From a virus: a stretch of 64,000 nucleotides of DNA. Below are positions 18,541 to 53,321 of this stretch, one piece after another. The translations under genes were made by a program, and so were the position numbers. Within the stretch, counting starts at the first letter, position 1. Every line of letters begins with the position of its first letter. The stretch is taken from positions 2,723 through 66,722 of IMG/VR virus record IMGVR_UViG_3300036401_000102; one strand, 5' to 3'. The notes below the pieces were generated by a model. That model saw only the letters and a list, made by a program, of their open reading frames with translations. It did no database searches and was not told where the DNA came from.

Positions 18541-19191
18541 TCACCGCGCTGCGACTGTTTTCCGCTCTTGCGCCGCCATGCGCAACAGGCTCAGTTCAGT
18601 CGCTGCCGACGACGGCGTATAGCCGTAGGCGAGCAGGCGTCCGGTGTAGATGGCGTCCGTCGTTTTGCCGGCCAGCCACTCGCGGTCGCGCTCGGCCTTC
18701 TTGTCTTGGAGGTGGCGCCAGAAGTCGGGGTCGGTGCGCGACATCATGGCGATTTCACATTGCAAGATCGTGGCGGTAACGGGCCGCTAGTAAGTGTGGC
18801 CGCAAACGTCGCGGGCCATACCGCGACGAACAGAACAAGGTCGGATGGTAGCACCGGATCGTTCGGACATGTCCGGATGGAATAACCCGCCACGAGACCT
18901 ACGAGAACGCATCCGATGACCCAGTATGCCAGCAAAATCCTCATCGTCTTCTCCATCGGTTGCAGCCACACTAGCCCGGAATGGTTGAGGAAGGGTTAGC
19001 GCGGCCAGTGGTCCCTTACGCGCTGGCGGCATTCGGTTTCTGTGCCTCCGGCTGCGCGGCATGGCGGGTAGTGCTCGGCGACGAGAATGACGAAGTCTTC
19101 CACCGGGATTCCGGTGGGGTGCACTATCGAATAAATTCCGCCCCCGATCATCGCTGCGAACGCAGTTGCGAGGCCAGCCAGAACCAACCCC
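18541..19191 (-). CDS. Cluster of small hypothetical/membrane proteins (18541-18765, 18744-18944, distal part of 18996-19487)
   Basis: Short co-oriented ORFs, two with TM segments; exact starts uncertain. Confidence 0.5.
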
Positions 19192-19203: not shown

Positions 19204-20448
19204 TCACTCATCGTCGTTTCTCTTTGGCACTTCGGCAATCCGCTTCGCCTTCGCGGCTTCCAGCGGCTCGCGGTCCTCGGCGGTGACGCCGATGCGGTTG
19301 CGCATGTTCCGCTCCGCGCCCCAGCGGTCGTCAATGTCCTCTTTTGACCCCATGTCCGGGAGCCATGCGTAGAACCACGCGGCGTATTGGGACGGGTTCT
19401 TCGGGAGCGGCGTAGCTTGGGCGTTGGCCTCGGCGACGGCTGCGGTAGCCTTGGCGACAGGATCGGCCGGCGGCTCGGCGCGCGCATCGTCCATCCGCTG
19501 TTCCACCGACTCGTCTACGGTCTTCGGCTCGGGCTCTGCCTGGGGCGCATCCGCAGCCTTCGCCCGGGCTCCCTTGCCGCGCGTCCGGGTCTTCTTGGTG
19601 CCATCACCCCCGGTCTCGGCCGCCGCACCAGCGCCCGCCTCTGCCCCGGCGTGGCCATGGTCCAGATCCCCGTTGAGTCCGGCCTCTACCACCCCGTCGC
19701 GGAACCCCTCCGCAGGGGCGCCGTTGCCGGATTGGGCCGCGAGGCGCTCGGCGAGGGTCTGGCCGGCACCGGTCACGTCGCGCGCGTCGGCGCCGACGTC
19801 ATATTGTTCAAGCTCGTCCGGGGTGTAAATCCCGAGCAGCACATCGGGTGCGTAGATGCGAATCCAGTCGCGCGATGTATCGTAGAAAAGCTGGACGAGA
19901 GGTTTTTTCGTCCAAAGTGGGCTGCCCTTGATCTGGCCGCGATCATTCTTCGGCGGGATAACTTCGCGCAACTTCGGCGACCGGTGTTCGCGCGGCTCGG
20001 TCTCGCCTCGGAAGATGCCAGACACGATGCATACCGTGTCGTCGCCTTCACCCTCATAACGGACCTTGAGCCGTTCCTTGAGCGGCGCGCGGGCCTCGAT
20101 CACGGCGTGAACGAGTTGCGACTCGTAGTTCAGCCGATCATTCGTGACGTAGGACTTATTCGCTACTGCAAAACACGACATCTTCCATTCGACGGCCTGC
20201 AAGCAGATTGCGAGGCACATGCCGGGATTGGCGCGGAGATGCGCCGGGACCGCCTGCTGCGAGACGGACATCAATCGCGCCATCTCCATCACTTGCAGCA
20301 TGTTCTCGATTCGCACGCCGCCGAACTCGGCGCCAGCGGTGAGAGACTGCGTCGCGCTGGGGTCGATGCGCCGCTCGATCTCTTGCGTGCGCGCCGCAAT
20401 CTTCTCGTCAACGGTGCGCAGCGGGCCGTCTTGTTCAGTCATGCTCAT
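19204..20448 (-). CDS. recT: RecT-family single-strand annealing protein with long acidic/Ala-rich tail
   Basis: VPAHL..NPG.CLAI..QA..W.M..FAVANKSYV...L.YESQLV.AVI and PDVLLGIYT.DEL; next to a RecE-like exonuclease. Confidence 0.8.
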   Translation of the reverse strand: MSMTEQDGPLRTVDEKIAARTQEIERRIDPSATQSLTAGAEFGGVRIENMLQVMEMARLMSVSQQAVPAHLRANPGMCLAICLQAVEWKMSCFAVANKSYVTNDRLNYESQLVHAVIEARAPLKERLKVRYEGEGDDTVCIVSGIFRGETEPREHRSPKLREVIPPKNDRGQIKGSPLWTKKPLVQLFYDTSRDWIRIYAPDVLLGIYTPDELEQYDVGADARDVTGAGQTLAERLAAQSGNGAPAEGFRDGVVEAGLNGDLDHGHAGAEAGAGAAAETGGDGTKKTRTRGKGARAKAADAPQAEPEPKTVDESVEQRMDDARAEPPADPVAKATAAVAEANAQATPLPKNPSQYAAWFYAWLPDMGSKEDIDDRWGAERNMRNRIGVTAEDREPLEAAKAKRIAEVPKRNDDE

Positions 20449-20501
20449 CGTGTCGTCTCCATTGGGTTGGCGCAGCATGGCACTTCGCCGCGCGGGTGTC
20501 G

Positions 20502-20778: not shown

Positions 20779-21750
20779 CTAGTTCGTGGTTGGCTCCGAG
20801 GTCAGCCGCTTGATGCGCGCCTTGGCCCGCTCGCGATACCAGTCGGTGAGATCGATATACGGCACGTCGTCGGTTGCCTCTGGCCCTTCACCGGGGCCGG
20901 GCCATTCCTTCTTGGCGACGCACTCGGCGAAGCGGTTGAGTGCGAGCCGATTTTCCTGTTCGCCGAGGTCGAGATCGTCGGGCTTCAACTGCACGACACG
21001 GCAGCAATACGGCCGTGTCTTCTCGACGAACACCAGCGAGAATGTGAAGAGCTTGCGGTCGATCTTGAGAACCTTCTCAACAGCAGTGCGGATCAGCGCA
21101 CCCTGACAATGGTAGCCGTAATCGCTGATCGTGCGCATCATGTCGATCCACGCCACGGACAGCGTCGTCTTGAGATCGGAATAATCCGCCGAGGAAGTCG
21201 GAATCGAGTCCGGGCGCGTTTTGACCCAAATGCCCGTCTCCTCGTCGCGGTACACGATGGTGCGCTCGATCAGACCGTTGAGGATGCCGGCGCGCACGAA
21301 CGGGTTGGTGCCGAGGCTGAGCGCCATGCCCTTGATGTGGTCGACCGTCTTGCCGGATAGCACGGTCTTTTTGTGCTTCGCCGCAACCGCCATCCAGTCC
21401 TTGCAGACCGTGCGTGAGCCGTGCCACGGTTTCAGTACGCCCTCGTCGTCCGCGATTTCCTTCGGCTGGATCACAAACTCCTTGGCGAAGAACGGTTGCC
21501 CGAGCATGAGGTGATGCACGGCGCGGCCGGTCGTGAAGTGCTCTTTCTCGTCAGGCTCTTCGCGATTCGGATTGTAGGGGGACGTGTCGAAGTAATGCTT
21601 CGGGGACTTGGCGTGTAGCGTGCGCAGGCCGGATGACGAGATCGACACGCCCGCGCACGCCTTCGCGCTGTGATAAAAATCGATGGGCACATTTTCATAG
21701 AGGCCCGGCTTGGCGATCGGCTTACCGTCAAACTTGATTGATTTGATCAT
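20779..21750 (-). CDS. recE: RecE-like PD-(D/E)XK exonuclease (exonuclease VIII / DUF3799)
   Basis: YH.....ISSSGL, G.AVH..ML, E.TI.Y.D..TG...KTRPD, DLKTT, YGYH.Q and F..VEK..PY motifs. Confidence 0.85.
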   Translation of the reverse strand: MIKSIKFDGKPIAKPGLYENVPIDFYHSAKACAGVSISSSGLRTLHAKSPKHYFDTSPYNPNREEPDEKEHFTTGRAVHHLMLGQPFFAKEFVIQPKEIADDEGVLKPWHGSRTVCKDWMAVAAKHKKTVLSGKTVDHIKGMALSLGTNPFVRAGILNGLIERTIVYRDEETGIWVKTRPDSIPTSSADYSDLKTTLSVAWIDMMRTISDYGYHCQGALIRTAVEKVLKIDRKLFTFSLVFVEKTRPYCCRVVQLKPDDLDLGEQENRLALNRFAECVAKKEWPGPGEGPEATDDVPYIDLTDWYRERAKARIKRLTSEPTTN

Positions 21751-21778
21751 CGCTTGCTCCATCGGTTGCGTGGTGAGG

Positions 21779-22351
21779 CTATCGCGCGCGTTTGCATTGC
21801 GCTTCGCACCAGCAGCCTTGCCAGTCCGTGCGTCGGCCGTATTTGCGTTTGAGGCGCGTCATCTGGGCGAGATTATCGCCGCAGATCGAGTCCCAGATGT
21901 CATGCCAGACCATGCCGTAGCGCACGCCCTTTGGCGGCTGATAGTCAAACGCGCTCGCCGTGACAATCTCGACGCGCGGGTCTGTGTAGCTCGGGCTGAT
22001 AAGTGCGACCACGTCGGCGTCGATTTCGACAACGGTTGCCTTCGTCACTTCGGGCTTGCGCAGACACGCGGCGAGCACCATGCCGATGCCAAGGCCGTTG
22101 ATGAGCACGTGGCCCCGCGCGCGGTGAACCGGATACGAATGATCGTAGCGCTCGTCCGGCGTATCCGACATGACGATGCCGCGACCGTCACAGTGGAGTT
22201 GTGTATAGGTGCCGGCTGGCACGTAGCCGCGCCCCTTCATCGCGGCGCGTAACGCCGTGAATTTGGCGCTCTCTTCGGACACGGTGAATCGCTTGACAGT
22301 CCAGCGCCCGCGTTTTCCTTCCGGCACATTCACAGATTCGATCAAACTCAT
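21779..22351 (-). CDS. Class I SAM-dependent transferase (spermidine-synthase-like fold)
   Basis: VMSDTP.E, VLINGLGIG, VVEIDADV and DIWD motifs. Confidence 0.75.
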   Translation of the reverse strand: MSLIESVNVPEGKRGRWTVKRFTVSEESAKFTALRAAMKGRGYVPAGTYTQLHCDGRGIVMSDTPDERYDHSYPVHRARGHVLINGLGIGMVLAACLRKPEVTKATVVEIDADVVALISPSYTDPRVEIVTASAFDYQPPKGVRYGMVWHDIWDSICGDNLAQMTRLKRKYGRRTDWQGCWCEAQCKRAR

Positions 22352-22731
22352 TTTCGGCTCCATTGGTTGCGCGATTGCATTTTACGTTTCGGCCATCTCG
22401 ACTTCGGCCTTGCGGACTTGCCGGGCTCTTTGGCGAGCAGGCGGCGGGATGCTTCCTCGGTGACGCGGGCGAGGCGTTTGACCTTGGCGATTGCGCTGAT
22501 GTCCTTCGGCGTGCGGGCTTTGTGATCGGCGCGCAGCATCGGGTGCAGATTGTGCCAGCGGTCGTCACAGTCGATCGAGTGAAATCGGATGTGATGCATA
22601 TCGAACAGCGCGATCACTTCCGCCGCCGGTACGCGCCGCGCGCGCAGATCGTCGCGTACGTCTTGCGGCAAAATGCATGAGAGCGCCGCCGCAAGACGTT
22701 CAGTAAGACTGATGTGGCCGCGCTTGGCCAT
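22348..22731 (-). CDS. HNH-like protein
   Basis: 'DMHHI.......DRWHNLHPM...DH...T' with a basic tail. Confidence 0.55.
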   Translation of the reverse strand: MAKRGHISLTERLAAALSCILPQDVRDDLRARRVPAAEVIALFDMHHIRFHSIDCDDRWHNLHPMLRADHKARTPKDISAIAKVKRLARVTEEASRRLLAKEPGKSARPKSRWPKRKMQSRNQWSRK

Positions 22732-23624
22732 CAGAGATCGGCCGTGATCTCGTCCCATCCATCGGACAGGCGAGTGAGCTTGCGCATGTTGTAGTTCTCA
22801 TCTCGCTGCGCGCGGTCCCATTTCTTGCGGTCGATCAGGCGCTCTACGTTCGTGCGGATAAGCTGGTCGATCACTGATGGATTGAGCGCGTCGAGTTCGA
22901 ATGACTCGTCGCCGTGCTCGGCTTGATAACCGGCGTGGCGGCTGTCGGTTTCCTTGGCGGGGTTCGGCGGCGGATTGTATTCGTCGATCTGATCGCGGTT
23001 CAATGCGAGCCGGATCAGTTTGACGTCGTGGCCCGCGAACATTGACAGTCGCTCTTGATTGTCGCGCGTCATGTCGATGCCGCTCGGATCGTGATCGCCC
23101 AGATGAAAGACGACCGGCGTCTGTCCGTTCGCACGATATGCGGCGAACCGCTTGCCAGCCTCGTATTGCGCCGATTGCGATGTGTAACCACGACATGCAA
23201 ATTCCTCGACACGCAGTTCGCGGCATGCGCGCTCGATCACGCCGCGCAGCGCGTCTTTCTCGATCCAGACTTCGGGGCGGAATTTCTGCGTCGCCCACAA
23301 GTCCTCTTTGTATTGACGCGACACAGCTTTGATGATTTCGGCCGGACTGTTCCACGTGCTGATGGTGTTCAGTTTGCGCGTCCGGTCTTCCATCATGTCC
23401 CAGTCAACGAGACCGGCGAGCCGTGCATCGTTGATGATTGACCCGAGCCGCTTGTATTCGGTCTGCTTGTTCGGGATGAGCCCGCGCGCGACAAACTGAT
23501 AATAGAGTTGGCGCAACGTAAGCACCAAACCTTGTTCGGAATATTCCGCGAGAATGTCGTTTGCCGTCTCAATCAGCTTCACGCTCGCGGGCGCGAAGTT
23601 GCGAGGCACGAAGACCTCAAGCAT
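22731..23624 (-). CDS. Toprim-domain protein (topoisomerase VI-A / JetD-like fold)
   Basis: TLRQLYY winged helix; EVWIEKDAL, GDHDPSG and ELDAL motifs. Confidence 0.78.
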   Translation of the reverse strand: MLEVFVPRNFAPASVKLIETANDILAEYSEQGLVLTLRQLYYQFVARGLIPNKQTEYKRLGSIINDARLAGLVDWDMMEDRTRKLNTISTWNSPAEIIKAVSRQYKEDLWATQKFRPEVWIEKDALRGVIERACRELRVEEFACRGYTSQSAQYEAGKRFAAYRANGQTPVVFHLGDHDPSGIDMTRDNQERLSMFAGHDVKLIRLALNRDQIDEYNPPPNPAKETDSRHAGYQAEHGDESFELDALNPSVIDQLIRTNVERLIDRKKWDRAQRDENYNMRKLTRLSDGWDEITADL

Positions 23625-23643
23625 TCCGTTTCTCCATCGGTTG

Positions 23644-23765
23644 TCGCCCGACCATAGCGCGTCGTCTCGCGCATTGCAGTAGGGCAGATTTCCTATCGCG
23701 CGTCCGAAATGGGAAAACGTACTTCTTGCGGAGACACGGGAAATAGCTACCGTGGGGATGCAACT
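23644..23765. promoter_or_regulatory. Divergent control region between the leftward and rightward early arms
   Basis: Non-coding gap at the strand switch, bounded on both sides by the CAACCGATGGAG RBS motif. Confidence 0.65.
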
Positions 23766-23786
23766 GCAACCGATGGAGACGACGAC

Positions 23787-24014
23787 ATGACCAGCCAGAC
23801 CACACAGACCGAAGCAGAACCCAGCATCACGGTTTTCGTCGTCCCCGAAAAACTCTCGGACGGCTCCGTCGCATGGAATGTTCATCTAGGCGAGCGCGTG
23901 TTTGCCGCGACCACCGAAGATGATGCCACCGACTTCGCCGACAAATTGGCTGCGGCCATCAACGAACACACGACCGACATCGCCGACGTGATTGTTGAAA
24001 GCTGGCGCATCTGA
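23787..24014 (+). CDS. Small acidic hypothetical protein
   Basis: ATG 8 nt after GCAACCGATGGAG; 'EKLSDGSVAWNV' motif. Confidence 0.65.
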   Translation: MTSQTTQTEAEPSITVFVVPEKLSDGSVAWNVHLGERVFAATTEDDATDFADKLAAAINEHTTDIADVIVESWRI

Positions 24015-24078
24015 CCGTCCCCCTAACCCTCTCACAGAGACAGACACCAATTTTCTGCAACCAATGGAGCCCTACCCG

Positions 24079-24588
24079 ATGCAAACCCAAGCATGGCCCG
24101 ACCCGCGCGTTGAGCGGCTGACCTCAATCTGGTCGTCTACGACGCTCGGCTACAAGGAGGTCGCTGCCGACCTCAACGCGAAGTTTCCCGACTATCGGCC
24201 GGTGAGCGGCGACGCGGTGCTCAAGAAGGCGAAGAACCTCGGGCTACCGGCGCGGCCACAGAAGCACATCGTGGCGCACGTCCAGCGCCGGTCGATCGCC
24301 CATCAGGGCGGCGGGTTCACCGCGCTCCGTGGCGGCAAGCCGCATGCGCCGAAGTGGTTCGACGACACGGCCGACGCGGCGGCGGTGCCGATCGAGCGGC
24401 GGTGCCAGCTTTGGGAGTTGGAAAAGGATCGGTGCCACTGGCCGTTCGGAGAGCCGGGCACCGCCGCGTTCTTCTTCTGCAACGACGTGACCGCCTCGGG
24501 CGCCAAATATTGCCCCCACCATACCCACAAATCCGGGCTCGGCCGCGTCCAACTCACTCCCTACGAGATCGAGCGATTGCAAATGTGA
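24079..24588 (+). CDS. gcrA: GcrA-family cell-cycle transcription regulator
   Basis: N-terminal W....VE.L..IW...A..L...S..AV..K...LGL HTH; C-terminal L.EL....CHWP.GEP.....FFC........YC..H. Confidence 0.85.
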   Translation: MQTQAWPDPRVERLTSIWSSTTLGYKEVAADLNAKFPDYRPVSGDAVLKKAKNLGLPARPQKHIVAHVQRRSIAHQGGGFTALRGGKPHAPKWFDDTADAAAVPIERRCQLWELEKDRCHWPFGEPGTAAFFFCNDVTASGAKYCPHHTHKSGLGRVQLTPYEIERLQM

Positions 24589-25615: not shown

Positions 25616-26138
25616 CCCTGGCCTGAGCGGCGGCCTCGCGGTCTACGAGCCCGGCGCAGAGATCGTGCTGGCCGATATCCCGGTGTTCTGGGAGGGCCAG
25701 CGCCGCCGGGTGCATGGGCGGATCCTGATGGAATGGCTCGCGCTCCACCGGCCGGATGTGGTGTTCGTGGAAGAGGTCTGGGCCGGTCCCGCGTTCGCCG
25801 GCCCGGCCGGGTTCCGGTTCGGGCGCGCCACCGGTGCCATTGAGAGCGCGATCCAGTGCGCCGGAATTCGGATGCGGCTGGTGCGCCCCCAAGTCTGGAA
25901 AGCCTACCACGGCTTGATTGTGGCCCGGCGGAAGGGCGATCCTAAACCCCCAAAGCTGACGACCGCCGAGACGAAGGAAAAGAGCCGCATCCTGGCGATT
26001 CGCCGGTTCCAAGAGGCGGCGCCGATGATCGAGCGCAAGCGGGACCACGGGCGGGCGGAAGCCCTCCTGATCGCCGCCTACGGCGCGCACGTCATGTCCG
26101 AGCAACCAATGGAGAACCGAGATGCGGCTGGAGCCTGA
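25596..26138 (+). CDS. RuvC-like Holliday junction resolvase
   Basis: DPGLSGGLA, VEEV, FRFG, V.PQ.WK and DHGRAEALLIA motifs. Confidence 0.85.
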   Translation: MRIGACDPGLSGGLAVYEPGAEIVLADIPVFWEGQRRRVHGRILMEWLALHRPDVVFVEEVWAGPAFAGPAGFRFGRATGAIESAIQCAGIRMRLVRPQVWKAYHGLIVARRKGDPKPPKLTTAETKEKSRILAIRRFQEAAPMIERKRDHGRAEALLIAAYGAHVMSEQPMENRDAAGA

Positions 26139-26949
26139 CACATTCAACAAGGGGCGGGTGCGCCTCTATCGCGGCGACTGCATGGAGATCATTCCGAAGT
26201 TGCGCGGCAAGTTCGGCGCGGTGATCTTCGATCCGCCCTATGAAAAGCACATGCACAATTCCAAGGAGGGCGCGCGCGGTCGGAAGAATTACGGAGCGAT
26301 TCGGCGCATTCGAACAGATGGCCACGCCAATCCGAGGCCGGTCAAATTCAAGTCGATCGACGGCGTGCGCGAGGTGCTGGTGCCGCTGCTCGTGCCGCGC
26401 TGCACTGGCTGGCTCGTGGCGTTCTGTACGCCCGAGGGGATCGCGGCATGGCGGGACGAGATCGAGGCAGCCAAGGCGCGCTATAAGCGGGCGTGCTTCT
26501 GGTACAAGCCCGACGCGGCGCCGCAGTTCAATGGCCAAGGACCAGCGTTCGCGGTGGAGGCGTTCGTCACCGCATGGTGCGGCACCGGCGTATCGCGCTG
26601 GAACGGAGGCGGCCGGCGTAACCTGTTCACGCATCCGACGAACAACGCGGACCGGCACGGGGCGTTCGAGACCGAAAAGCCGGTGGCGCTCATGATGGAG
26701 TTGATCGAACTGTTCACCCAGCCCGACGAATTCATTCTGGACCCGATGATGGGCTCGGCGACCACCATCCTCGCGGCGATGGCCACCGGGCGCCGCGTGA
26801 TCGGCATCGAGAAAGACCCCGAGACCTACAAGCTGGCGCGCGCGCGGGTCGAGGCGTTCCCGATGGGGCGGCAGGAAGGCCGGGCGCACATCGCCAAGGC
26901 GCTGTTTCCCCAGGCCGACGCCGGTCCTCTTTTCGCAACTCCGGCTTGA
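26122..26949 (+). CDS. DNA N6-adenine/N4-cytosine methyltransferase (beta class)
   Basis: GDC, DPPY, TEKPV.LM and ILDPMMGSATT motifs in beta order. Confidence 0.9.
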   Translation: MRLEPDTFNKGRVRLYRGDCMEIIPKLRGKFGAVIFDPPYEKHMHNSKEGARGRKNYGAIRRIRTDGHANPRPVKFKSIDGVREVLVPLLVPRCTGWLVAFCTPEGIAAWRDEIEAAKARYKRACFWYKPDAAPQFNGQGPAFAVEAFVTAWCGTGVSRWNGGGRRNLFTHPTNNADRHGAFETEKPVALMMELIELFTQPDEFILDPMMGSATTILAAMATGRRVIGIEKDPETYKLARARVEAFPMGRQEGRAHIAKALFPQADAGPLFATPA

Positions 26950-27421
26950 CATCAACCCCTAGCGGTGAGTCGATGCGCCAGCCCCAAGCGGCTGCGGGAC
27001 TTGCAAAATCGGCGGATGTGGCGCTAGAAATGCAAATCGCCCGGAGAGCCGAGGCTCCATCCGGGCGATAAGACAAGCTACCGATTGTTCTCTTGGCAGG
27101 GCACAGCGGTAGCTCACTTGGCAACGGAGATATTCTATTTCCGTTCCCCATTCAACCCTCCCTGCCCACAAAGACGGCCGCCAAACAGGCTGCGTCTCCG
27201 CAAGGAACGCGGCTCCCCGCTAGGGGCGGCAGCGCAGGGTGTAGGGGCAAAGCTCCAGACCGGACGCGCAACGGGCCAAGTATCGGTCGTGGTCGACGTT
27301 CCCTGCCCGGCTCCATCGGACAGAAACGGGCCGCGCTCCCCGTACCTTCCGAGGGTCTCGCCCTTGGGGGTAAGGGGGGTGTGGCCTCCGAACCCTACCC
27401 TCACCATCGGACAGAGACAAA

Positions 27422-28018
27422 GTGGAGCTAGTAGAAGTGAAAAAGAACCTGAACAAGAGGCACTTTGAGCAGGTAGAGGCAAACCGAGTGATCACGCAAT
27501 CGCTCAGAAAGCTTGGAATTCCTTACGTCAATATGAATATTTTACAGGCCGGACTCATCGTCGCCGACAATCTCGGCATCAAACTAGATTACAAGCTGAC
27601 AAAATTGACAAAACATCGCCTCGCAAAGAGCATCGTCGATAAAGGATTTGTGCTGGGAGGGTTGCCTACACCAACAAGGAAGTTTGATCCCAAGCCATTC
27701 GACGCCGATCATGTCGGAACGAGCGCCCCATCGCAAAAACACATCAACGCGTTTTATGACTCTTGGGAATGGAAACGTCTGAGCTATGACGTCAAGATAG
27801 CGCGCGGCAGAAAGTGCGAGTGCTGCGGAGCCACGGCGCCGGATTCCAAGATCGTTACTGACCACGTCAAACCGCTGCGCTATTTCTGGCATATGCGGTT
27901 GTTGACCACCAATCTCCAAGTGCTTTGCGACGACTGCAATCGTGGCAAAGGAAGTCGCGACGAGACAGATTGGCGCGCGGAGAATGTCAGCGTTCTCATT
28001 CCAAAAGCGAGGACGTGA
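27422..28018 (+). CDS. HNH endonuclease
   Basis: FY.S.EW..L, CECCG, DHVKP and NLQVLC..CNRGK; lower GC than flanks. Confidence 0.85.
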   Translation: MELVEVKKNLNKRHFEQVEANRVITQSLRKLGIPYVNMNILQAGLIVADNLGIKLDYKLTKLTKHRLAKSIVDKGFVLGGLPTPTRKFDPKPFDADHVGTSAPSQKHINAFYDSWEWKRLSYDVKIARGRKCECCGATAPDSKIVTDHVKPLRYFWHMRLLTTNLQVLCDDCNRGKGSRDETDWRAENVSVLIPKART

Positions 28019-30294: not shown

Positions 30295-31089
30295 ATGCGC
30301 AAATACACGCACGACATCGTGTCATGGTCCAAGGGCACAGAGAAACTGACGCCCGAAGAGTATCGGGCGTATCACGTCATCGTCGGGCTGATGTACCTCA
30401 CCGAGGGGCCTGTGCCGTATGGCGAGAAGGAAATCGCGGCGCGGTGCAACATGTCGGTGCAGAAACTGCGCGGCGCGGTGGATAGCCTGATTGCGGCGCA
30501 GAAGCTCTGGCGCCGCGACGAGTGCCTGTACAACGCGCGCGTGCTGGACGAGTTGATGAAGACGGTCCCCGGATGCACGCAATGGGACCTGACGCCGTGC
30601 CACGACGCCGTGCCTGAACTGCCTCTCGCTGCGCCAAGGGCGAAGCGAATAGCCCCGCCGGAGACCGTGGCCGCGTTCGAACGGTTCTGGGCGAATCGTG
30701 CATCCCGCGTCGGCGGGGATCCCAAGCAACCAGCGCTCGACCGGTTCGCGGCGCACGTCGCGGCCGGTGTGGCGCTCGAGACAATCGAAGCCGGGATGCG
30801 CCGGCACGTCGCCGCGCTTCGCTCCAGCGGAGACCTGGGGACCAAGTTCACTCCGATGACGATCACGTGGCTCAATCAATCCGGCTTCGCCGACGACGCC
30901 CCGCAGGACCAGAAACAGAACGTGGTTGAACTCGACCCGGCGAAGTTCTCAAATGACGACTGGGCGCGCGTGTTGCGCGCGTATCGCATGACGAATAATT
31001 GGAAGGCGCATTTGAACGGGCCGGAGCCTGGGCGCCCCGGGTGTCTTGTTCCCGCCGCGCTGCTGCAACCGATGGAGAAGCACGCATGA
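30295..31089 (+). CDS. DUF1376/YdaU-like replication initiation protein
   Basis: T..LT.EE..AY.....MY N-terminus; FERFW and TWLNQ C-terminal motifs; adjacent to DnaB. Confidence 0.7.
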   Translation: MRKYTHDIVSWSKGTEKLTPEEYRAYHVIVGLMYLTEGPVPYGEKEIAARCNMSVQKLRGAVDSLIAAQKLWRRDECLYNARVLDELMKTVPGCTQWDLTPCHDAVPELPLAAPRAKRIAPPETVAAFERFWANRASRVGGDPKQPALDRFAAHVAAGVALETIEAGMRRHVAALRSSGDLGTKFTPMTITWLNQSGFADDAPQDQKQNVVELDPAKFSNDDWARVLRAYRMTNNWKAHLNGPEPGRPGCLVPAALLQPMEKHA

Positions 31090-31667
31090 CCGAAGCCTAT
31101 CCGCTGCACTGGCCAGAAGGACGCAGGCGTACAGAATATCATCGGCGCCAGCGGTCTCGGTTCAACACCGGATTTGGGATCGCGGTGCGTGAAGTCATCG
31201 CCGAATTGAAACGGCTCGGCGCGCGCAATGCCGTGGTGTCGACCAACGTACCGCTGCGTCGCGACGGTCTTCCGCTGGCGAGCGCCAAGAGCGTTTCCGA
31301 CCCTGGGGTTGCCGTCTATTTCCGCTACAAAGACAAACCAATGACGTTCGCATGCGACCGGTGGGATAAGCCCGAAGACAATCTTTGGGCCATCGCAAAG
31401 ACGATTGACGCGATGCGCGGTATTTCGCGTTGGGGTTCCGGTGACATGCTTGACACCGCGTTCAGCGGGTTCGTATCGCTGCCGCCGCCGAAATCGCCGT
31501 GGACAATTCTCGGCGTCGACAAGCGGTCGGCGACTCGCGATGTCATCAACGCGCGGTGGCGCGACCTCGCCAAGCAGCATCACGCCGACGCTGGCGGATC
31601 GACTGGCATGATGGCAGAGATCAATGTGGCTCGGGACAACGCGCTGCGCGAGATTGGCGCGGCTTGA
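31086..31667 (+). CDS. Phage J-domain-containing protein
   Basis: AYPL.WP.G..RT, DPGVAVYF, CDRW; C-terminal W.ILGV...LAKQHHAD.GGS...MAEIN.A. Confidence 0.85.
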   Translation: MTEAYPLHWPEGRRRTEYHRRQRSRFNTGFGIAVREVIAELKRLGARNAVVSTNVPLRRDGLPLASAKSVSDPGVAVYFRYKDKPMTFACDRWDKPEDNLWAIAKTIDAMRGISRWGSGDMLDTAFSGFVSLPPPKSPWTILGVDKRSATRDVINARWRDLAKQHHADAGGSTGMMAEINVARDNALREIGAA

Positions 31668-31692
31668 CCTCGCCCGTCCGATTGGCGATATG
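31664..31692 (+). promoter_or_regulatory. Putative sigma70-type promoter
   Basis: TTGACC-17 nt-GATATG; the predicted start (about 31698) coincides with the first base of hairpin 1. Confidence 0.55.
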
Positions 31693-31697
31693 AGTCC

Positions 31698-31787
31698 GGC
31701 GCCGCGAGTTTCTGATCTCCATTGGTTGCGCGTGGCGCCAGGGGGCCGCGTTCCTCCCGGTTCGCGGTCCCCCGCAGTTTCACATTT
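31698..31787 (+). ncRNA. Candidate trans-acting antisense small RNA (two hairpins with anti-SD loops)
   Basis: Hairpin 1 (31698-31739) loop carries CTCCATTGGTTG; hairpin 2 (31741-31772) loop is TTCCTCCCGGTT; complementary to an RBS motif before 12 genes. Confidence 0.65.
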
Positions 31788-31814
31788 CAACCGAACACTT
31801 TGTGAGCAAGCAGC

Positions 31815-32342
31815 ATGGGATCACCGGGAGCGCCACGACGGGCTTCCGGTGATCGCCTCTCCGCTCCGGTCGACCACATTGAGACGTGGCCCATCGGCAA
31901 GCTCAAGTCCCGCGCCGACAATCCGAACCTGCATTCCCCCGAACAAATTGAGCTTATCGCAAAGTCGTGGGACCGTCGCGGGCAGACGCAACTCATTTTG
32001 GTTGATGGCGACAAGGGGCCGACGTTCGGCGAGATCATCGCTGGCGAAGGCCGTCTCGCCGCTGCCAAGTTGCGCGGGCTCAAGAACGTTCGAGTCGGTG
32101 TTGCCATCGGGTGGCCGGAAGAAGAAAAACACGCCTATCGCATCATCGACAACCAACTCACGCGGCTGAGCGAGTGGGACGGCGAACTGCTCGCGGCCGA
32201 AGTGAACGACCTCGACGCGGCGGGCTATGACGTGTCTCTGCTCGCGGTCGACGCGGACCTGTCGTTGCCACCAACGCAACGGGCACCGCGATCGATTACG
32301 CCGCGATGCCCGACATGCAATCGGCCGATGCCGAAGAAGTAG
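31815..32342 (+). CDS. ParB/Srx-like N-terminal domain protein
   Basis: NPNLHS.EQI..IA.S, IIAGEGRL.AA, AYRIIDN.L...SEWD..LL motifs. Confidence 0.85.
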   Translation: MGSPGAPRRASGDRLSAPVDHIETWPIGKLKSRADNPNLHSPEQIELIAKSWDRRGQTQLILVDGDKGPTFGEIIAGEGRLAAAKLRGLKNVRVGVAIGWPEEEKHAYRIIDNQLTRLSEWDGELLAAEVNDLDAAGYDVSLLAVDADLSLPPTQRAPRSITPRCPTCNRPMPKK

Positions 32343-32597
32343 CTAGACGTGTTCGAGCTTGGCGACGACCTCGCCGCGCACCGTGATGAGGTCGCCCGCG
32401 CGCGTCTCGATCAGGCAGATGTCGTCGGGCTCGCAGCCGTACCATCCCGCCACGTCCATCTCGACTGACGGCCAGATGTGGCGATGCTGCTGGAACCACT
32501 GGCGCACGATGCTGCGCCCCGTGGCGATGTCGGTGACTTGGACGGTCGTGCCCTTGCCGAGCATCGTGTCCACGTCGGTGGTGGTGAGCAGACTCAT
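32343..32597 (-). CDS. Hypothetical protein
   Basis: Distal part of ORF 32343-33083, starting MSLLTT after a GGGG SD. Confidence 0.55.
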   Translation of the reverse strand: MSLLTTTDVDTMLGKGTTVQVTDIATGRSIVRQWFQQHRHIWPSVEMDVAGWYGCEPDDICLIETRAGDLITVRGEVVAKLEHV

Positions 32598-32730
32598 GGC
32601 GTCTTCCCCATCATGTTGCACGTCTTGATCCAGTCCAGCGCCTCGCCGCGCGTCGCAAACGTCTCGGCGGCTTCGATCCATTTCCAGATCGGATGCCATG
32701 CGGTCGGGGAGAGCATGATGATCGCGGTCA

Positions 32731-33129
32731 TCACCGTGCCCCCTGCTCTTTCGCCGCATAACGCTTGCGCGCCTGCGTGGCCTTCGCTTCCATCGCTGAC
32801 ATGGCGATGTCGCGGCTACCGTAATATTCGGAGCCGTTACTCGCGCCGAACGACACGCCGTTTTTCGTAACATGGAAGCGGACTTCGACCGGTGCTGATG
32901 CTGCGACCACGTCTGCAGTAACGAGACGCCAGCCCCGATGCTCTGCGCGTCGCGCCGCCTTCTCGTCCTCAGACAATGCGCGGACCATGATCGGTCGGAC
33001 GGTCCAGAGATAGCCGATAGCGCGGCCCTTGCGGTCAAGCAGGCCGAAGTCGCGTTTGGTGGTTTCGATCTTATTGAGATCACCTCTGGTGATTTCGTCG
33101 ACCGCTACGTGGTTGCTATAATCCGTCAT
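32731..33129 (-). CDS. Hypothetical protein
   Basis: Start MTDYSN follows the GCAACCAATGGGG motif. Confidence 0.65.
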   Translation of the reverse strand: MTDYSNHVAVDEITRGDLNKIETTKRDFGLLDRKGRAIGYLWTVRPIMVRALSEDEKAARRAEHRGWRLVTADVVAASAPVEVRFHVTKNGVSFGASNGSEYYGSRDIAMSAMEAKATQARKRYAAKEQGAR

Positions 33130-33302
33130 GTCCGTCCCCCATTGGTTGCCTTCACGTTCAAGATAGTTACTGCGGCACAGGGATAAGTCCACATCAATGC
33201 ATAGGACAGAAAAACTAACTGCATGTCGCAATGGGAAGACGTGCCTAGCGCCGGAATACGTGCTTATAGACGGACCTTCGGCGATTGCTTAGCGTGCCGT
33301 CA

Positions 33303-36094: not shown

Positions 36095-36121
36095 TTTGCT
36101 CACACCAATGGAGAGTCTCAC

Positions 36122-36574
36122 ATGAACTACAGTACAGCCGTTTTCCTGATCAATGACGCGGCTCGCGCCGTCTACGCGACGTATGAGGCCGACGACAAGA
36201 CCGCGCCGAAGACGTTGTTCAAGACCTTCGACAAGACCATCGCGGTCGGCGACTATGTCGTGGTCCCGACGAACACGCGCCACAAGATGACGGTCTGCAA
36301 GATCATTGAGGTCGACGTGGATTTCGATCTTGGCACGACCGACGAACTGGCGTGGGTCATCGGCAAGGTCGACAAGGCGATGTTCCAGAAGACGCTCGAT
36401 CAGGAAGCCGTCGCCATCGCCGCCATCAAGTCGGCTGAACTGCGCAAGAAGCGCGAAGAGTTGCGCACCGCGCTGTTCGCCGATCACGCAGCCAAGCTCG
36501 CCGAACTCGACATCGCGCACGCCGGCAACGGTGGCGTTCTCGAAGCGCCGAAGACCGACGCGGCGACCGGATAA
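36122..36574 (+). CDS. Hypothetical phage protein
   Basis: ACCAATGGAG RBS; 'FKT.D..I.VGD.VVVP' and 'WVIGKVD'. Confidence 0.75.
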   Translation: MNYSTAVFLINDAARAVYATYEADDKTAPKTLFKTFDKTIAVGDYVVVPTNTRHKMTVCKIIEVDVDFDLGTTDELAWVIGKVDKAMFQKTLDQEAVAIAAIKSAELRKKREELRTALFADHAAKLAELDIAHAGNGGVLEAPKTDAATG

Positions 36575-43442: not shown

Positions 43443-43859
43443 ATGGCAGCACCGAAGGGACACAAGCGATACGGCGGCCGGACGAAGGGCCAGACCAACC
43501 TTGCGACGCGCGAGCGTGAGGCGGCCGTCGCCGAGGCGCTGAGTAATCCGTCGTCAGACGATACGCTGAGCAAGCGCACGCTGGTCAAGGTGATCAAGCA
43601 TTTTGAGGGGCTCGCGGCGAAGCACAAGGCGGCTGGGGACGAGAAATCGTTCATGCACTGCCTCAAGCTCGCGGGGGACTTCGCGGCCAAGCTGATGCCG
43701 TTCCAGTATCCGACGCTGCAGTCCGTCGCCGTTCGCCAACTGCCACCGCTCCGACCAGAGGATCTGGATGACGATCAACTTCGAGCGGCTATCGCTCTTG
43801 AGAGCGCGCTTACCGCCGCTGGCGGAGATGCAGGCCGAACTCTTAAGACGGTCAACTAG
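43443..43859 (+). CDS. terS: Terminase small subunit
   Basis: GGR.KG..N N-terminus, 'A..L.PFQYP.L', 'DLDDDQL'; directly before TerL. Confidence 0.75.
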   Translation: MAAPKGHKRYGGRTKGQTNLATREREAAVAEALSNPSSDDTLSKRTLVKVIKHFEGLAAKHKAAGDEKSFMHCLKLAGDFAAKLMPFQYPTLQSVAVRQLPPLRPEDLDDDQLRAAIALESALTAAGGDAGRTLKTVN

Positions 43860-45477
43860 CGCTGCCGTCACGCATGACCGCGACGCGGTGCGCGAGCGCT
43901 GCAAGACGCTGAGCGGGTTCATCCGCGAGGCGTGGCACGTGATCTTTCCCGCTACGCCGTACGTCGAGAACTGGCACATCGAGGCGAAGTGCGCGCACTT
44001 CGAGGCGGTCAGTCGCGGCGCGCTGCTCGCGTTGGGGTACGAGAACCGCATCGTGACGAACGAGCCCCCAGGCACGATGAAGAGCTTGGCGATGTGCGTG
44101 TTCTGGCTGGCCTACGAGTGGGGTCCGCTGAACATGGCCGAGCTGCAGGCCATCGCTGCGTCGTACCGCATCGACTTCTGTCTCCGCGATCAAGCGCGGT
44201 TCTCCAAGCTCGTGAACAGCGGCTGGTATCAATCGTTATGGCCGCACGTCGAGATCACCGGCGACTCGTCGACGAAACTTGAGAACTCGCGCGGCGGCAA
44301 GCGCGAGGCAATTCCGTTCCCGTCGCTGACCGGCGCACGGTCCGATCGGCTCTACATCGACGATCCTCATTCCGTTGACACGGCCGAGTCGGACGCAGAC
44401 CGCGAGAGCGCAGAGCGGAGATTTCGCGAAAGCGCGACAAACCGCATGAACGACCCGATCACATCGTTCATCGGCGTGATCATGCAGCGGCTTCACCAGA
44501 TGGACATCACGGGCGTGATCGCCAAGAGCCGGATGCCGTATCTGCATCTGCTGTTCCCGATGCGGTTCGACCCGCAGCGATGCTGCTACTCGCCCGTGCC
44601 AAACGACACCAAGCCGCAGCGGATGCGCCATCTGTGGTCGCGCCAGATGTGGCTGCCCGATACTTGGAAGCCGGTTGCGGAAGGTGAACAGGCGTGGGCC
44701 GAAGAGTTTGCGTCGGCTCGCGTCGAGACTGTGTACCGATGGGACAAGCGTACCAAGGCTGGAGAGTTGCTGTTCCCCGACCGTTTTCCGCGCGCCGTGG
44801 TCGAGCGCGACGAGGCCGCGATGGGGGCGCACGCCACGGCGTCGCAATACGATCAGCGGCCCAATCCGCGCGGCGGCCTCAAGTTCAAGCGCCACAACTT
44901 CCCGATCGTGAAGGCGGTCCCGAGCGGATGCCGCACCGTGCGTGGCTGGGACTTGGCGGCATCGGAGAACCGCAATTCGGCCTATACGTGCGGGCTCAAG
45001 CTGTCGTTCCATCCCCCGACGCGGCATTTCTACGTCGAGCACGTCGTGCGGGTGCGCACCGAGAACGTCGAGCCGGTCATTCTCAACACTGCGCGCCAGG
45101 ACAATAACAACGGCCATCGCGTCGAGATCAGCCTGCCGCAGGATCCGGGGCAGGCCGGCAAGGTCCAGGTCAAGGCGCTCGTCGGCGCGCTGATCGGCTT
45201 CATCGTGCATCGGTCCCCGGAGAGCGGCGACAAGCTGGCGCGCGCCGAGCCTGTGATCGCGCAGTCCGAGGCGGGAAACATCTCGATCCTTGAGGGCGAT
45301 TGGAACGAGGCGTTCCTCGACGAGATCGAGCTATTCCCGTCTGGCACGTTCAAGGATCAGGTCGACGCCCTCTCGCGTGCGTTCAGCCGATTCGTTATGA
45401 CTCCGATGGAGTACGTCATGCCGCCAATCGTGGTGACGCGGCAGCGGGAGACGGCGTGGGACAATCAAGGGAACTGA
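43768..45477 (+). CDS. terL: Terminase large subunit
   Basis: NWHI, Walker A PPGTMKS, Walker B YIDDPH, IMQRLH..D, WDLA and DQVDA. Confidence 0.95.
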   Translation: MTINFERLSLLRARLPPLAEMQAELLRRSTSAAVTHDRDAVRERCKTLSGFIREAWHVIFPATPYVENWHIEAKCAHFEAVSRGALLALGYENRIVTNEPPGTMKSLAMCVFWLAYEWGPLNMAELQAIAASYRIDFCLRDQARFSKLVNSGWYQSLWPHVEITGDSSTKLENSRGGKREAIPFPSLTGARSDRLYIDDPHSVDTAESDADRESAERRFRESATNRMNDPITSFIGVIMQRLHQMDITGVIAKSRMPYLHLLFPMRFDPQRCCYSPVPNDTKPQRMRHLWSRQMWLPDTWKPVAEGEQAWAEEFASARVETVYRWDKRTKAGELLFPDRFPRAVVERDEAAMGAHATASQYDQRPNPRGGLKFKRHNFPIVKAVPSGCRTVRGWDLAASENRNSAYTCGLKLSFHPPTRHFYVEHVVRVRTENVEPVILNTARQDNNNGHRVEISLPQDPGQAGKVQVKALVGALIGFIVHRSPESGDKLARAEPVIAQSEAGNISILEGDWNEAFLDEIELFPSGTFKDQVDALSRAFSRFVMTPMEYVMPPIVVTRQRETAWDNQGN

Positions 45478-52913: not shown

Positions 52914-53321
52914 ATGAAGATAGGACTGCTTTTTCAGGCGTTCAGCGGTCGATGCATCTATTGCAAATGCATGACGGTAATCGGCGCAGTCCACGAGATG
53001 GCGCGCAATCGTCTCAAGAGCCACGCAGCCACCAAGGACCATGACACGCCATTCGCGCGCGGCGGGGTGAGGAACGCGAACAACGAGGTGTTGTCGTGCC
53101 ATCGCTGCAATGTCGTCAAGGGCGACATGACCGGCCCCGAATTTCTGGAATTCCGCAAGACGGGTCGGCTCGCGGCGAGTTACATTGCGTATCTGGAGCG
53201 GTCGCTCGCGGAGCGAGGCGGCTTTGCAATCAATGGAGCGGCGCATGAGCGAGTTCACGATAGGGCGGGTGGCATTCGGGCCAGCGCCAGCATTGTCGAT
53301 GCCGTTCCGGACCCTAGTTGA
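52914..53321 (+). CDS. HNH endonuclease
   Basis: RCIYC, AT.DH..P.ARGG....N.V.SC.RCN..KG. Confidence 0.8.
   Translation: MKIGLLFQAFSGRCIYCKCMTVIGAVHEMARNRLKSHAATKDHDTPFARGGVRNANNEVLSCHRCNVVKGDMTGPEFLEFRKTGRLAASYIAYLERSLAERGGFAINGAAHERVHDRAGGIRASASIVDAVPDPS

What the first reader, a model, noticed from the sequence alone, without database searches (positions are those of the whole stretch)
31664..31787. Candidate phage sRNA antisense to a shared extended ribosome-binding site of 12 genes
Seen: the motif GCAACC(A/G)ATGGAG lies 6-9 nt before the start codon of 12 genes, always in sense orientation. Minus strand: 18951-18963, 20457-20469 (recT, one extra C), 21757-21770 (recE), 22358-22373, 23632-23643 (Toprim), 33137-33149. 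Plus strand: 23766-23778, 24057-24069 (gcrA), 26102-26114 (MTase), 31065-31077 (J-domain), 36104-36113 (partial), 53226-53238. The one copy I found that is not followed by a start codon is CTCCATTGGTTGCGCG at 31717-31732. It sits mostly in the loop of a GC-rich hairpin beginning just after a TTGACC-17-GATATG promoter, so a plus-strand transcript would display the exact antisense (16/16 match to the 22358 site). Internal substitutions among targets are A>G opposite U (CCGAT; GGGG) or C>T opposite G (53226). All of these keep pairing through G-U wobble, which fits RNA-RNA recognition better than a DNA operator. A second hairpin has the anti-SD loop TTCCTCCCGGTT, reminiscent of alphaproteobacterial CCUCC-loop (cuckoo/alpha-r14) sRNAs. 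Inference: one sRNA of about 90 nt translationally silences an early regulon, including the first gene of both divergent arms. It could act as an RNA-based immunity or early-to-late switch in a phage with no recognisable CI repressor.
Basis: partly seen in the sequence, partly recalled or inferred. Interest (0 to 1): 0.92.

Follow-up and report, generated by a model that had tools for sequence, protein, structure and literature searches.

The report
Phage RNA hairpin mirroring shared ribosome-site tag
An uncultured soil phage puts the same 13-letter tag on the ribosome-binding sites of twelve early genes and keeps one mirror-image copy in the loop of a promoter-driven RNA hairpin, which may switch that gene set off together, though no RNA has been observed.

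Summary
Observation confirmed. GCAACCRATGGAG occurs 11 times at up to 1 mismatch in the window (0.14 expected). Ten copies, plus two degenerate ones, lie in sense 6-9 nt before an ATG. The only reverse copy in the complete 66.7-kb genome (31717-31729) sits in the 24-nt loop of a 9-bp GC stem on the + strand.

New here: the hairpin starts 7 nt after CTTGAC-N17-CGATAT, the genome's only match at up to 1 mismatch to the alphaproteobacterial sigma-70 consensus (0.2 expected). The second hairpin's loop holds 7 of 8 letters of the alpha-r14 anti-SD motif.

The sense motif is a start-associated sequence (SAS) as in Cluster K mycobacteriophages, whose role is still unknown. Phage Anaya likewise shows its single reverse SAS in a covarying hairpin loop.

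Against: no RNA data, no close relative reachable, no canonical terminator, no Rfam hit. Five other phages with SAS-like tags had no reverse copy. Loop and SAS do not covary in Cluster K.

Interpretation partly supported, about 0.45. With no integrase found, an early shut-off fits better than immunity. This scan noted the same design before in at least 30 other genomes; those notes are unchecked.

The parts
18951..18963 (-). SAS-like tag (exact), 6 nt before the ATG of a 66-aa gene at 18744-18944
   Evidence: no Pfam or PHROG family
20457..20469 (-). Degenerate tag (CAACCCAATGGAG, one extra C), 8 nt before the ATG of the RecT gene at 19204-20448
   Evidence: RecT PF03837, E 3e-9
21757..21769 (-). 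Tag (exact), 6 nt before the ATG of the PDDEXK/DUF3799 exonuclease gene at 20779-21750
22358..22370 (-). Tag (exact; 16 of 16 identical to the antisense copy when 22371-22373 are included), 6 nt before the ATG of the gene at 21779-22351
23632..23644 (-). Tag (ACAACCGATGGAG, 1 mismatch), 7 nt before the ATG of the Toprim/topoisomerase-like gene at 22731-23624, the first gene of the leftward arm
   Evidence: PHROG 6247, E 4.7e-105
23766..23778 (+). Tag (exact), 8 nt before the ATG of a 75-aa gene at 23787-24014, the first gene of the rightward arm
24057..24069 (+). Tag (exact), 9 nt before the ATG of the GcrA gene at 24079-24588
   Evidence: PF07750, E 2.3e-18
26102..26114 (+). Tag (exact), 7 nt before the ATG of the N6/N4 DNA methylase gene at 26122-26949
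   Evidence: PF01555, E 1.4e-18
31065..31077 (+). Tag (exact), 8 nt before the ATG of the gene at 31086-31667 (PHROG 9210; homologues carry a DnaJ domain)
33137..33149 (-). Tag (GCAACCAATGGGG, 1 mismatch), 7 nt before the ATG of a 132-aa gene at 32731-33129
36101..36113 (+). Degenerate tag (CACACCAATGGAG), 8 nt before the ATG of a 150-aa gene at 36122-36574
53226..53238 (+). Tag (GCAATCAATGGAG, 1 mismatch), 6 nt before the ATG of a 74-aa gene at 53245-53469; the only copy outside 18.9-36.1 kb
31663..31691 (+). Promoter-like CTTGAC (31663-31668) - N17 - CGATAT (31686-31691). It overlaps the stop codon of the upstream gene (31665-31667).
   Evidence: It is the only match at up to 1 mismatch to CTTGAC-N16-18-CTATAT on either strand of the 66.7-kb genome, with 0.2 expected from 60 simulated sequences. 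The consensus comes from PMC2873474 and PMC3346310. The E. coli-type scan did not call it.
31698..31739 (+). Hairpin 1: a 9-bp GC stem (31698-31706 with 31731-31739, one G-U pair) closing a weakly structured 24-nt loop
31717..31729 (+). Anti-tag CUCCAUUGGUUGC in the loop of hairpin 1. This is the only reverse-oriented copy of the motif in the genome.
   Evidence: cost of opening it 6.5 kcal/mol
31741..31772 (+). Hairpin 2: a 10-bp GC stem (one G-U pair) with loop UUCCUCCCGGUU (31751-31762). UUCCUCCC matches 7 of 8 letters of the alpha-r14 anti-SD loop motif CUCCUCCC. The tail is GCAGUUUCACAUUUC, with no U run.
   Evidence: motif from PMC3346310; not called a terminator
31815..32342 (+). Downstream ParB_N-like gene with no tag and a poor SD. 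The hairpin RNA could be its 5' leader.
   Evidence: PF02195, E 0.0014, below cut-off

Best explanation
The 12 sense copies are a private 'start-associated sequence' (SAS): an extended ribosome-binding tag whose 3' GGAG is the Shine-Dalgarno element of early genes for recombination, replication and regulation. The single reverse copy is part of a small structured RNA transcribed rightward from its own host-type sigma-70 promoter, starting near 31698. That RNA is either a discrete RNA of about 80-95 nt or the 5' leader of the ParB-like mRNA. Hairpin 1 shows the exact complement of the tag in a 24-nt loop, and hairpin 2 shows a general anti-SD (CCUCCC).

The inferred mechanism is that the loop pairs with the tag on the mRNAs, covers the SD and blocks 30S binding. 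One RNA would then damp translation of the whole tagged set. In an apparently lytic phage this would be an early shut-off or dosage control.

Shown here: the motif statistics, geometry, fold, promoter match and pairing energies. Inferred: transcription, pairing in vivo and repression.
For: 1. Eleven matches at up to 1 mismatch against 0.14 expected. Ten of them are in sense 6-9 nt before an ATG and one is reversed.
2. The genome is complete (direct terminal repeats, 100% by CheckV), so there is exactly one reverse copy.
3. The + strand folds at z -3.83 and the - strand at z -1.11. Each stem has a G-U pair, so the structure is RNA-like and strand-specific.
4. The genome's best match to CTTGAC-N17-CTATAT (11 of 12; 0.2 expected genome-wide) ends 7 nt before the stem (consensus).
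5. Net energies (13-nt duplex plus both opening costs) are -4.8 to -12.2 kcal/mol for the 12 sites. With cofold, 9 of the 12 tagged genes rank in the best 20 of 100 start regions, including the top 5. This is partly circular.
6. Hairpin 2's loop carries 7 of 8 letters of the alpha-r14 anti-SD.
7. Independent parallel in mycobacteriophage Anaya. It has 16 sense SAS and 1 reverse. The reverse copy lies in a 385-nt gene-free gap and its complement CCUCCUAUCC is the 10-nt apical loop of a GC hairpin (z -3.99). That hairpin is kept in 7 aligned phages, and 6 of 20 pairs show compensatory changes. Pope et al. 2011 state that all four K1 phages have one such reverse site.
8. No CsrA or Hfq gene is in the phage.
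Against: - No RNA run holds the locus, so nothing shows a transcript.
- No relative keeps the locus. The best reachable homologues of the upstream gene are at most 62% identical, and their flanks differ.
- No U-tract terminator follows hairpin 2.
- There is no Rfam family hit.
- SAS-like tags without any reverse copy were seen in: the complete 40-kb record of L005 (6 of 6 sense); L172's record; L151's 74-kb record; the 20.6-kb locus L130, the only part of that chromosome held (5 of 5 sense); and Microbacterium phage AnnaSerena (10 of 10 sense in 88% of the genome).
- Within Cluster K only 4 of 11 aligned phages have the reverse SAS at up to 2 mismatches. Ekdilam and Unicorn each keep 12 exact copies of the SAS, yet their loops changed to 8 of 11 complementarity. 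So there is no tag-loop covariation.
- The anti-tag is partly paired inside the loop, with an opening cost of 6.5 kcal/mol.
Confidence: 0.45

Rival explanations
1. The tag is read by a protein or by the ribosome itself, as in a RegA-like translational repressor or activator or a host factor. The 31663-31814 region is then only the promoter and structured 5' leader of the ParB-like gene, or a terminator region of the upstream operon. Its reverse copy has no trans role.
For: Five other phages with SAS-like tags have no reverse copy in what was searched. Authors working on Cluster K still call the role unknown and suggest a protein, gp51. There is no terminator after hairpin 2, so the RNA probably runs into the ParB-like gene.
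Against: An exact 13-mer (16 of 16 with one site) in reverse orientation is expected about 0.004 times by chance; this is my own arithmetic, 2 strands x 66,722 x 2 / 4^13. It sits in a loop closed by a perfect GC stem, directly behind the genome's best promoter match. No CsrA or Hfq gene is in the phage. The same layout recurs in unrelated Cluster K1 phages.
Confidence: 0.25
2. The anti-tag acts only in cis, as a long-range element of the polycistronic rightward early mRNA. The 3'-UTR of the gene at 31086-31667 would fold back on that gene's own tag, 640 nt upstream, or on other tags of the same transcript, for autoregulation or mRNA stability.
For: The anti-tag lies 50 nt after the stop codon of a tagged gene, on the same strand. 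In provirus L254/G004, three SAS-like tags (CAACCGATGGAG) are each preceded by a cis complement (CCATCGGGGTTG) that folds over the tag.
Against: The strong promoter match just upstream argues for a separate transcript. The 16 of 16 identity is to the 22358 site on the other strand and operon, not to 31065.
Confidence: 0.1
3. The 13-mers are DNA sites for a phage repressor, comparable to the 13-bp asymmetric 'stoperators' of Cluster A mycobacteriophages. The reverse site is one more operator, placed at about +20 of the ParB-like promoter.
For: Stoperators are 13 bp, number 20-30, are asymmetric and are oriented with transcription (PMC6550527). In L254 the tag is half of an inverted repeat, which could be a dimer operator.
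Against: Every sense copy supplies the only GGAG at 6-9 nt from an ATG, which a DNA operator has no reason to do. No integrase was found, and only a sub-threshold HTH_3 hit (E 0.012) elsewhere in the genome. The G-U pairs make the hairpin strand-specific, which points to RNA rather than DNA.
Confidence: 0.1
4. The reverse copy is a relic, such as a former minus-strand gene start or a recombination scar at a module boundary.
For: Phage genomes are mosaic. The tag marks gene boundaries, and relatives carry different private tags.
Against: It is exact at 13 of 13 with no decay. No minus-strand start follows within 20 nt. It is embedded in a stable, strand-specific hairpin behind a promoter.
Confidence: 0.05

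Closest known systems
Start-associated sequences (SAS/ESAS) of Cluster K mycobacteriophages (Pope et al. 2011, PMC3203893) and Cluster EF Microbacterium phages (PMC7302621)
   Same: Both are 13-nt asymmetric motifs in 10-19 copies, 3-9 nt before mostly ATG starts. Both contain the SD core but are conserved beyond it, keep one orientation, and are restricted to non-structural genes. K1 phages also have a single reverse copy not at a gene start. I found that in Anaya this copy is displayed in a hairpin loop.
   Different: The sequence is unrelated (GCAACCRATGGAG against GGGATAGGAGCCC). The likely host is alphaproteobacterial (GcrA gene, promoter type), not an actinobacterium. No ESAS-like upstream inverted repeats were seen. 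The published SAS function is unknown, and no antisense RNA is proposed in the passages I read.
alpha-r14 / 'cuckoo'-type anti-SD sRNAs of Alphaproteobacteria (PMC3346310)
   Same: Both have GC hairpins whose loops expose a C/U-rich anti-SD. Hairpin 2 has UUCCUCCC against CUCCUCCC. Both are driven by a CTTGAC-N17-CTATAT promoter.
   Different: There is no covariance-model match at E up to 10. There are two hairpins, not three. Hairpin 1's loop is a private 13-nt anti-tag. It is phage-encoded.
c4 antisense RNA of phage P1 (PMC8546580 passage; 77-nt processed RNA, per the title of its reference 37)
   Same: Both are phage-encoded trans-acting RNAs that repress protein synthesis by pairing with the phage's own mRNA.
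   Different: c4 controls one operon (icd-ant) as part of immunity; those details are recalled, not from a call. Here about 12 dispersed genes on both strands share the target tag, and the phage looks lytic.
Stoperators of Cluster A mycobacteriophages (PMC6550527)
   Same: Both are many dispersed 13-bp asymmetric sites oriented with transcription.
   Different: Stoperators are DNA sites for the repressor and are not tied to SD or start spacing. Here the motif is the RBS.

Membership tests
Start-associated sequences (SAS type) | A motif of about 13 nt repeated 10 or more times, far above chance | tested here: met
   11 matches at up to 1 mismatch against 0.14 expected
Start-associated sequences (SAS type) | Lies a few nt upstream of start codons (mostly ATG), in one orientation relative to the gene | tested here: met
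   12 of 12 sense sites are 6-9 nt before an ATG
Start-associated sequences (SAS type) | Contains the SD core but is conserved beyond what 16S pairing explains | tested here: inconclusive
   GGAG is at the 3' end, and GCAACCRAU lies upstream of it, beyond where the few bases after CCUCC at the 16S 3' end could pair. This rests on a recalled 16S 3' end; the host 16S is unknown.
Start-associated sequences (SAS type) | Restricted to non-structural or early genes | tested here: met
   11 of 12 sites lie at 18.9-36.1 kb among RecT, exonuclease, GcrA and methylase genes. One lies at 53.2 kb.
Start-associated sequences (SAS type) | Sequence related to GGGATAGGAGCCC, or an accompanying ESAS inverted repeat | tested here: not met
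   The sequence is different, and no shared upstream repeat appears in the 30-nt contexts. The match is in kind, not by homology.
Trans-acting sRNA gene | Own promoter | tested here: met
   CTTGAC-N17-CGATAT, the only hit at up to 1 mismatch in the genome. This is sequence evidence only.
Trans-acting sRNA gene | Intrinsic terminator (GC hairpin plus U run) | tested here: not met
   Hairpin 2 is followed by GCAGUUUCACAUUUC and the scan did not call it
Trans-acting sRNA gene | Transcript observed | not testable with these tools
   No RNA run is listed, and only the source DNA contig holds the locus
Trans-acting sRNA gene | Conservation or covariation in relatives | not testable with these tools
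alpha-r14 / cuckoo RNA (Rfam) | Covariance-model match | tested here: not met
   0 hits at gathering score in the window. Only an unrelated snoRNA hit at E 1.6 in 31500-31950.
alpha-r14 / cuckoo RNA (Rfam) | CUCCUCCC in hairpin loops | tested here: inconclusive
   7 of 8 letters in one of two loops
Stoperator-type repressor sites | Bound by a phage repressor on DNA, with position independent of the RBS | tested here: not met
   Position is tied to the SD and ATG in 12 of 12 sites. Binding is not testable. No clear repressor was found.

The most novel reading that the evidence does not exclude
Start-associated sequences are 'addresses' for phage-encoded anti-SAS RNAs. A single hairpin-loop RNA made by the phage base-pairs with a private tag on a dozen ribosome-binding sites and switches that regulon off. 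This design would have arisen independently in an alphaproteobacterial phage and in Cluster K1 mycobacteriophages, and it would explain the single reverse SAS copy reported in 2011.
Probability: 0.3. Interest if true: 0.85.

Novelty: new variant of a known kind. Interest (0 to 1): 0.7.

Why it matters
SAS motifs have been described since 2011. In the 2024 and 2025 papers I read in passages, their role is still called unknown.

A promoter-driven hairpin that shows the exact complement of the tag gives a concrete and cheap test: reporter fusions with compensatory mutations. Culturable Cluster K1 phages of M. smegmatis offer a second test system.

If the reading is right, it shows how a phage can control a dispersed gene set on both strands with one small RNA. 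It would also extend SAS-type tags to phages of Gram-negative soil bacteria. A private tag paired with its own anti-tag RNA could also serve as an orthogonal translational switch.

Tried and rejected
Expression. The look-up of sequencing runs listed no RNA holder and only one DNA run, probably the source. Read laying on that run at 80% likeness gave only the source contig and no variant letters at 30800-32600.

Relatives.
- Phage-record blastn found only short distant gene matches.
- Scans with the ParB-like and J-domain-like proteins gave at most 62% identity.
- The Toprim-like protein gave at most 72%.
- Pattern scans of viral contigs gave more than 119 contigs with a single SAS+ATG match each, which I read as chance. 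They gave 0 hits for a 20-nt stretch of the loop and 0 for the divergent tag pair.
- In 181 relatives' loci (2.37 Mb) the 11-mer AACCRATGGAG occurs 5 times, 4 of them before a start, against 1 for the reversed control. The tag is therefore mostly private.

Rejected ideas.
- Extended pairing of GCAACC with GGUUGG of 16S helix 45 is not collinear with the SD pairing. This is my reasoning from a recalled 16S 3' end.
- The ATG inside the tag is not the true start. It is in frame with the long ORF in only 5 of 12 sites.
- A minus-strand small gene after the reverse copy is ruled out, because no start codon follows.
- A T7-like promoter reading is ruled out, because the tag is too close to the ATG.
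- The TTGAC-N16-19-ATAT pattern alone is not significant; 49 of 100 shuffles have at least one match.
- GATTGGCG at 31652 and 31680 is unremarkable, with 8 copies in the genome.

Literature limits.
- 'Not in print' rests on searches. It also rests on zero counts of 'antisense' and 'non-coding' in PMC12699233; of 'non-coding', 'ncRNA' and 'small RNA' in PMC11373665; and of 'noncoding RNA', 'non-coding RNA' and 'small RNA' in PMC9262239.
- The library holds only open papers. Dedrick et al. 2019 on ZoeJ was not seen.
- Supplements were closed. Figs S3 and S4 of PMC3203893, which show the reverse sites of Adephagia, Angelica and CrimD, may bear on the Cluster K claim.
- All papers were read as passages in find mode only.
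- T4 RegA and RegB, and the details of P1 c4, are recalled from memory.
Full report
What the DNA is. The window is bases 2723-66722 of a single 66,722-bp virus record. The record has direct terminal repeats and is rated 100% complete. GC content is 61.6%. The only sequencing run that holds it is a rhizosphere metagenome. It encodes GcrA, an N6/N4 DNA methylase, RecT and a PDDEXK exonuclease, and a Toprim/topoisomerase-like protein. No tyrosine integrase was found. It therefore looks like a lytic phage of an alphaproteobacterium; the host assignment is inferred from the GcrA gene and the promoter type.

The observation. GCAACCRATGGAG occurs 8 times exactly in the genome and 11 times at up to 1 mismatch. 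The expected number is 0.14, and 0 of 100 shuffles reached 11. Ten of these sites, plus two degenerate copies (20457, 36101), are in sense orientation with their GGAG 6-9 nt before an ATG. Eleven of the 12 lie at 18.9-36.1 kb, including the first gene of both divergent arms at 23632 and 23766. The remaining copy, 31717-31729 on the minus strand, is exact. It is identical over 16 letters to the 22358 site and is followed by no start codon.

The locus around the reverse copy.
- It lies in the 147-nt gap between the gene at 31086-31667 (itself tagged) and a ParB_N-like gene at 31815-32342.
- The + strand folds into two GC hairpins at -49.8 kcal/mol, z -3.83. The - strand gives only z -1.11. Each stem has a G-U pair that would be an A-C mismatch on the other strand.
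- Hairpin 1 (31698-31739) has a 9-bp stem and a 24-nt weakly paired loop. The 3' half of that loop is the anti-tag CUCCAUUGGUUGC.
- Hairpin 2 (31741-31772) has the loop UUCCUCCCGGUU.
One base to the left it reads CTTGAC-N17-CGATAT. The sigma-70 consensus used for S. meliloti and other alphaproteobacteria is CTTGAC-N17-CTATAT (PMC2873474 and PMC3346310, passages).
- This is the only match at up to 1 mismatch on either strand of the whole genome, with 0.2 expected. It ends 7 nt before hairpin 1. I regard this as the strongest new evidence that the hairpins are transcribed from their own start.
- There is no U-run terminator. The RNA may therefore continue as the leader of the ParB-like gene, which has no tag and a poor SD.
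- Rfam gives nothing: 0 hits at gathering score, and only a chance snoRNA hit at E 1.6 in the local permissive search.

Can the RNA pair with the tags?
- The 13-nt duplexes are -15.0 to -21.8 kcal/mol.
- Opening the anti-tag costs 6.5 kcal/mol and opening the targets costs 2.2-8.0.
- The net is -4.8 to -12.2 kcal/mol.
- In a cofold screen of 100 start regions, tagged genes take the top five places and 9 of 12 are in the best 20. RecT, gcrA and 36122 are not. This is expected by construction and shows feasibility only.
- It does not hold for G1>A at 23632, the extra C at 20457, or the 5' part of 36101. As evidence it is weak.

What kind of thing the sense motif is. [quoted passage not shown] These are 13 nt, in 11-19 copies, 3-7 nt before mostly ATG starts, in one orientation, on non-structural genes, and conserved beyond the SD (PMC3203893, passages). 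Similar motifs occur in Cluster EF Microbacterium phages (PMC7302621). Their role is still called unknown in 2024-2025 papers (PMC11373665 and PMC12699233). I also found private start-linked tags in distant relatives of this phage:
- L151/G003: TAGGAAAGGC, 6 exact copies in divergent arms.
- L130: GGAGGACGGGGCATG, 5 copies.
- L005: AGAGAACTTGAA, 6 copies.
- L172: TGACAGGAAAGA, 6 copies.
- L235: GGAGAACTCAAATG, 6 copies.

A parallel found here. [quoted passage not shown]
- In Anaya (JF704106) I found 16 sense sites and one reverse site. The reverse site lies in the 385-nt gap between gp96 and gp97.
- On the transcribed strand its complement CCUCCUAUCC is the 10-nt apical loop of a GC hairpin (z -3.99).
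- The gap is conserved in 182 phage records.
- In 7 aligned phages the hairpin has 20 predicted pairs, 6 of them with compensatory double changes.

Two unrelated phage groups with unrelated tags thus show the same layout.

Evidence against generality.
- Only 4 of 11 aligned Cluster K phages carry the reverse SAS at up to 2 mismatches.
- Ekdilam and Unicorn each keep 12 exact copies of the SAS, but their loops are only 8 of 11 complementary. Tag and loop therefore do not covary.
- AnnaSerena has 10 sense and 0 reverse copies in the 88% of the genome examined.
- The records of L005, L172 and L151, and the 20.6-kb locus L130, show no reverse copy.
- An anti-tag is therefore not required for SAS function. 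At most it is an added regulator in some lineages.

A cis variant. The provirus G004 (locus L254) shares the tag core CAACCGATGGAG. Three tandem genes there each have, just upstream, the imperfect complement CCATCGGGGTTG, which folds over the tag (z -2.16). This fits RNA-level masking of the tag. It could equally be a palindromic DNA operator.

Verdict.
- Best reading, about 0.45: an SAS-type regulon plus a promoter-driven two-hairpin RNA whose loop is an anti-tag and represses translation of the tagged early genes.
- Timing or dosage control fits better than immunity.
- Rivals: recognition by a protein or the ribosome, with the reverse copy incidental (0.25); cis-only long-range pairing (0.10); DNA operators of the stoperator type (0.10; PMC6550527); and a relic (0.05).
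- No protein candidate was found. The phage has no CsrA or Hfq gene.

Earlier notes of this scan. I had found the Anaya parallel before I looked up earlier findings. That look-up returned 34 notes in at least 30 other genomes describing hairpin loops antisense to a shared RBS tag. Several cite the same Cluster K parallel, and some claim tag-loop covariation. These are unchecked AI notes and I do not count them as support. They do mean this window is one more instance of a pattern the scan has reported repeatedly, and possibly the first with alphaproteobacterial features.

Noticed in passing
window 49484, 55787 and 61790 gene starts (also 1842, 3389 and 24640): Late or structural and some accessory genes share a different SD context, (A)CAGGAGA(CTT). 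The phage therefore has two classes of ribosome-binding site.
   Followed up: no
window 26950-27436: A large structured non-coding region upstream of the HNH and helicase genes. It holds CTCCATCGG (27311-27319, a 9-nt partial anti-tag) and CTCCATC (27055-27061). It also holds a direct repeat CCATCGGACAGA at 27313-27324 and 27404-27415. About one 9-mer match is expected by chance.
   Followed up: partly
window, all 12 tags: The tag contains an invariant ATG. In the 4 sites with an 8-nt gap, the mini-frame ATG GAG NNN NNN NNA TGA stops on the real start (ATGA). In 5 sites the tag's ATG is in frame with the gene. In 3 sites it opens a short out-of-frame ORF.
   Followed up: partly
L254:3424-4945 (provirus G004): Three tandem intergenic elements of about 35 nt, in which CCATCGGGGTTG-CAACA-CAACCGATGGAG forms a hairpin over an SAS-like RBS. 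The tag core is the same as in the window.
   Followed up: partly
L151, L130, L005, L172, L235, L264, L272, L276/L277, L299: Many distant relatives carry their own private start-linked motifs, for example TAGGAAAGGC, GGAGGACGGGGCATG, AGAGAACTTGAA, TGACAGGAAAGA and GGAGAACTCAAATG.
   Followed up: partly
L221:39690-40070 (Anaya) and 181 other Cluster K records: A conserved gene-free element: the upstream terminator, a conserved TTTTAGACT box, then two covarying hairpins. In some records small ORFs are annotated across it.
   Followed up: partly
L214:13789-20529: Twelve copies of an intergenic repeat of about 60 nt (core TCACCTGCACCGC), all on one strand.
   Followed up: no
window 45399-45411: GACTCCGATGGAG followed 6 nt later by an ATG, inside the 3' end of the 569-aa gene at 43768-45477. 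It may be a weak extra tag or chance.
   Followed up: no
window 23700-23760: TTGCGG-N14-GCTACCGT ahead of the rightward tag resembles the Caulobacter-type promoter form. That consensus is recalled, not from a call. Transcripts would start just before the tag.
   Followed up: no
L126:12218-12616, L141:10594-10832, L206:7204-7676, L130:16991-17290: Long tandem arrays of 18-36-nt units, probably repeat proteins, in loci of distant relatives.
   Followed up: no
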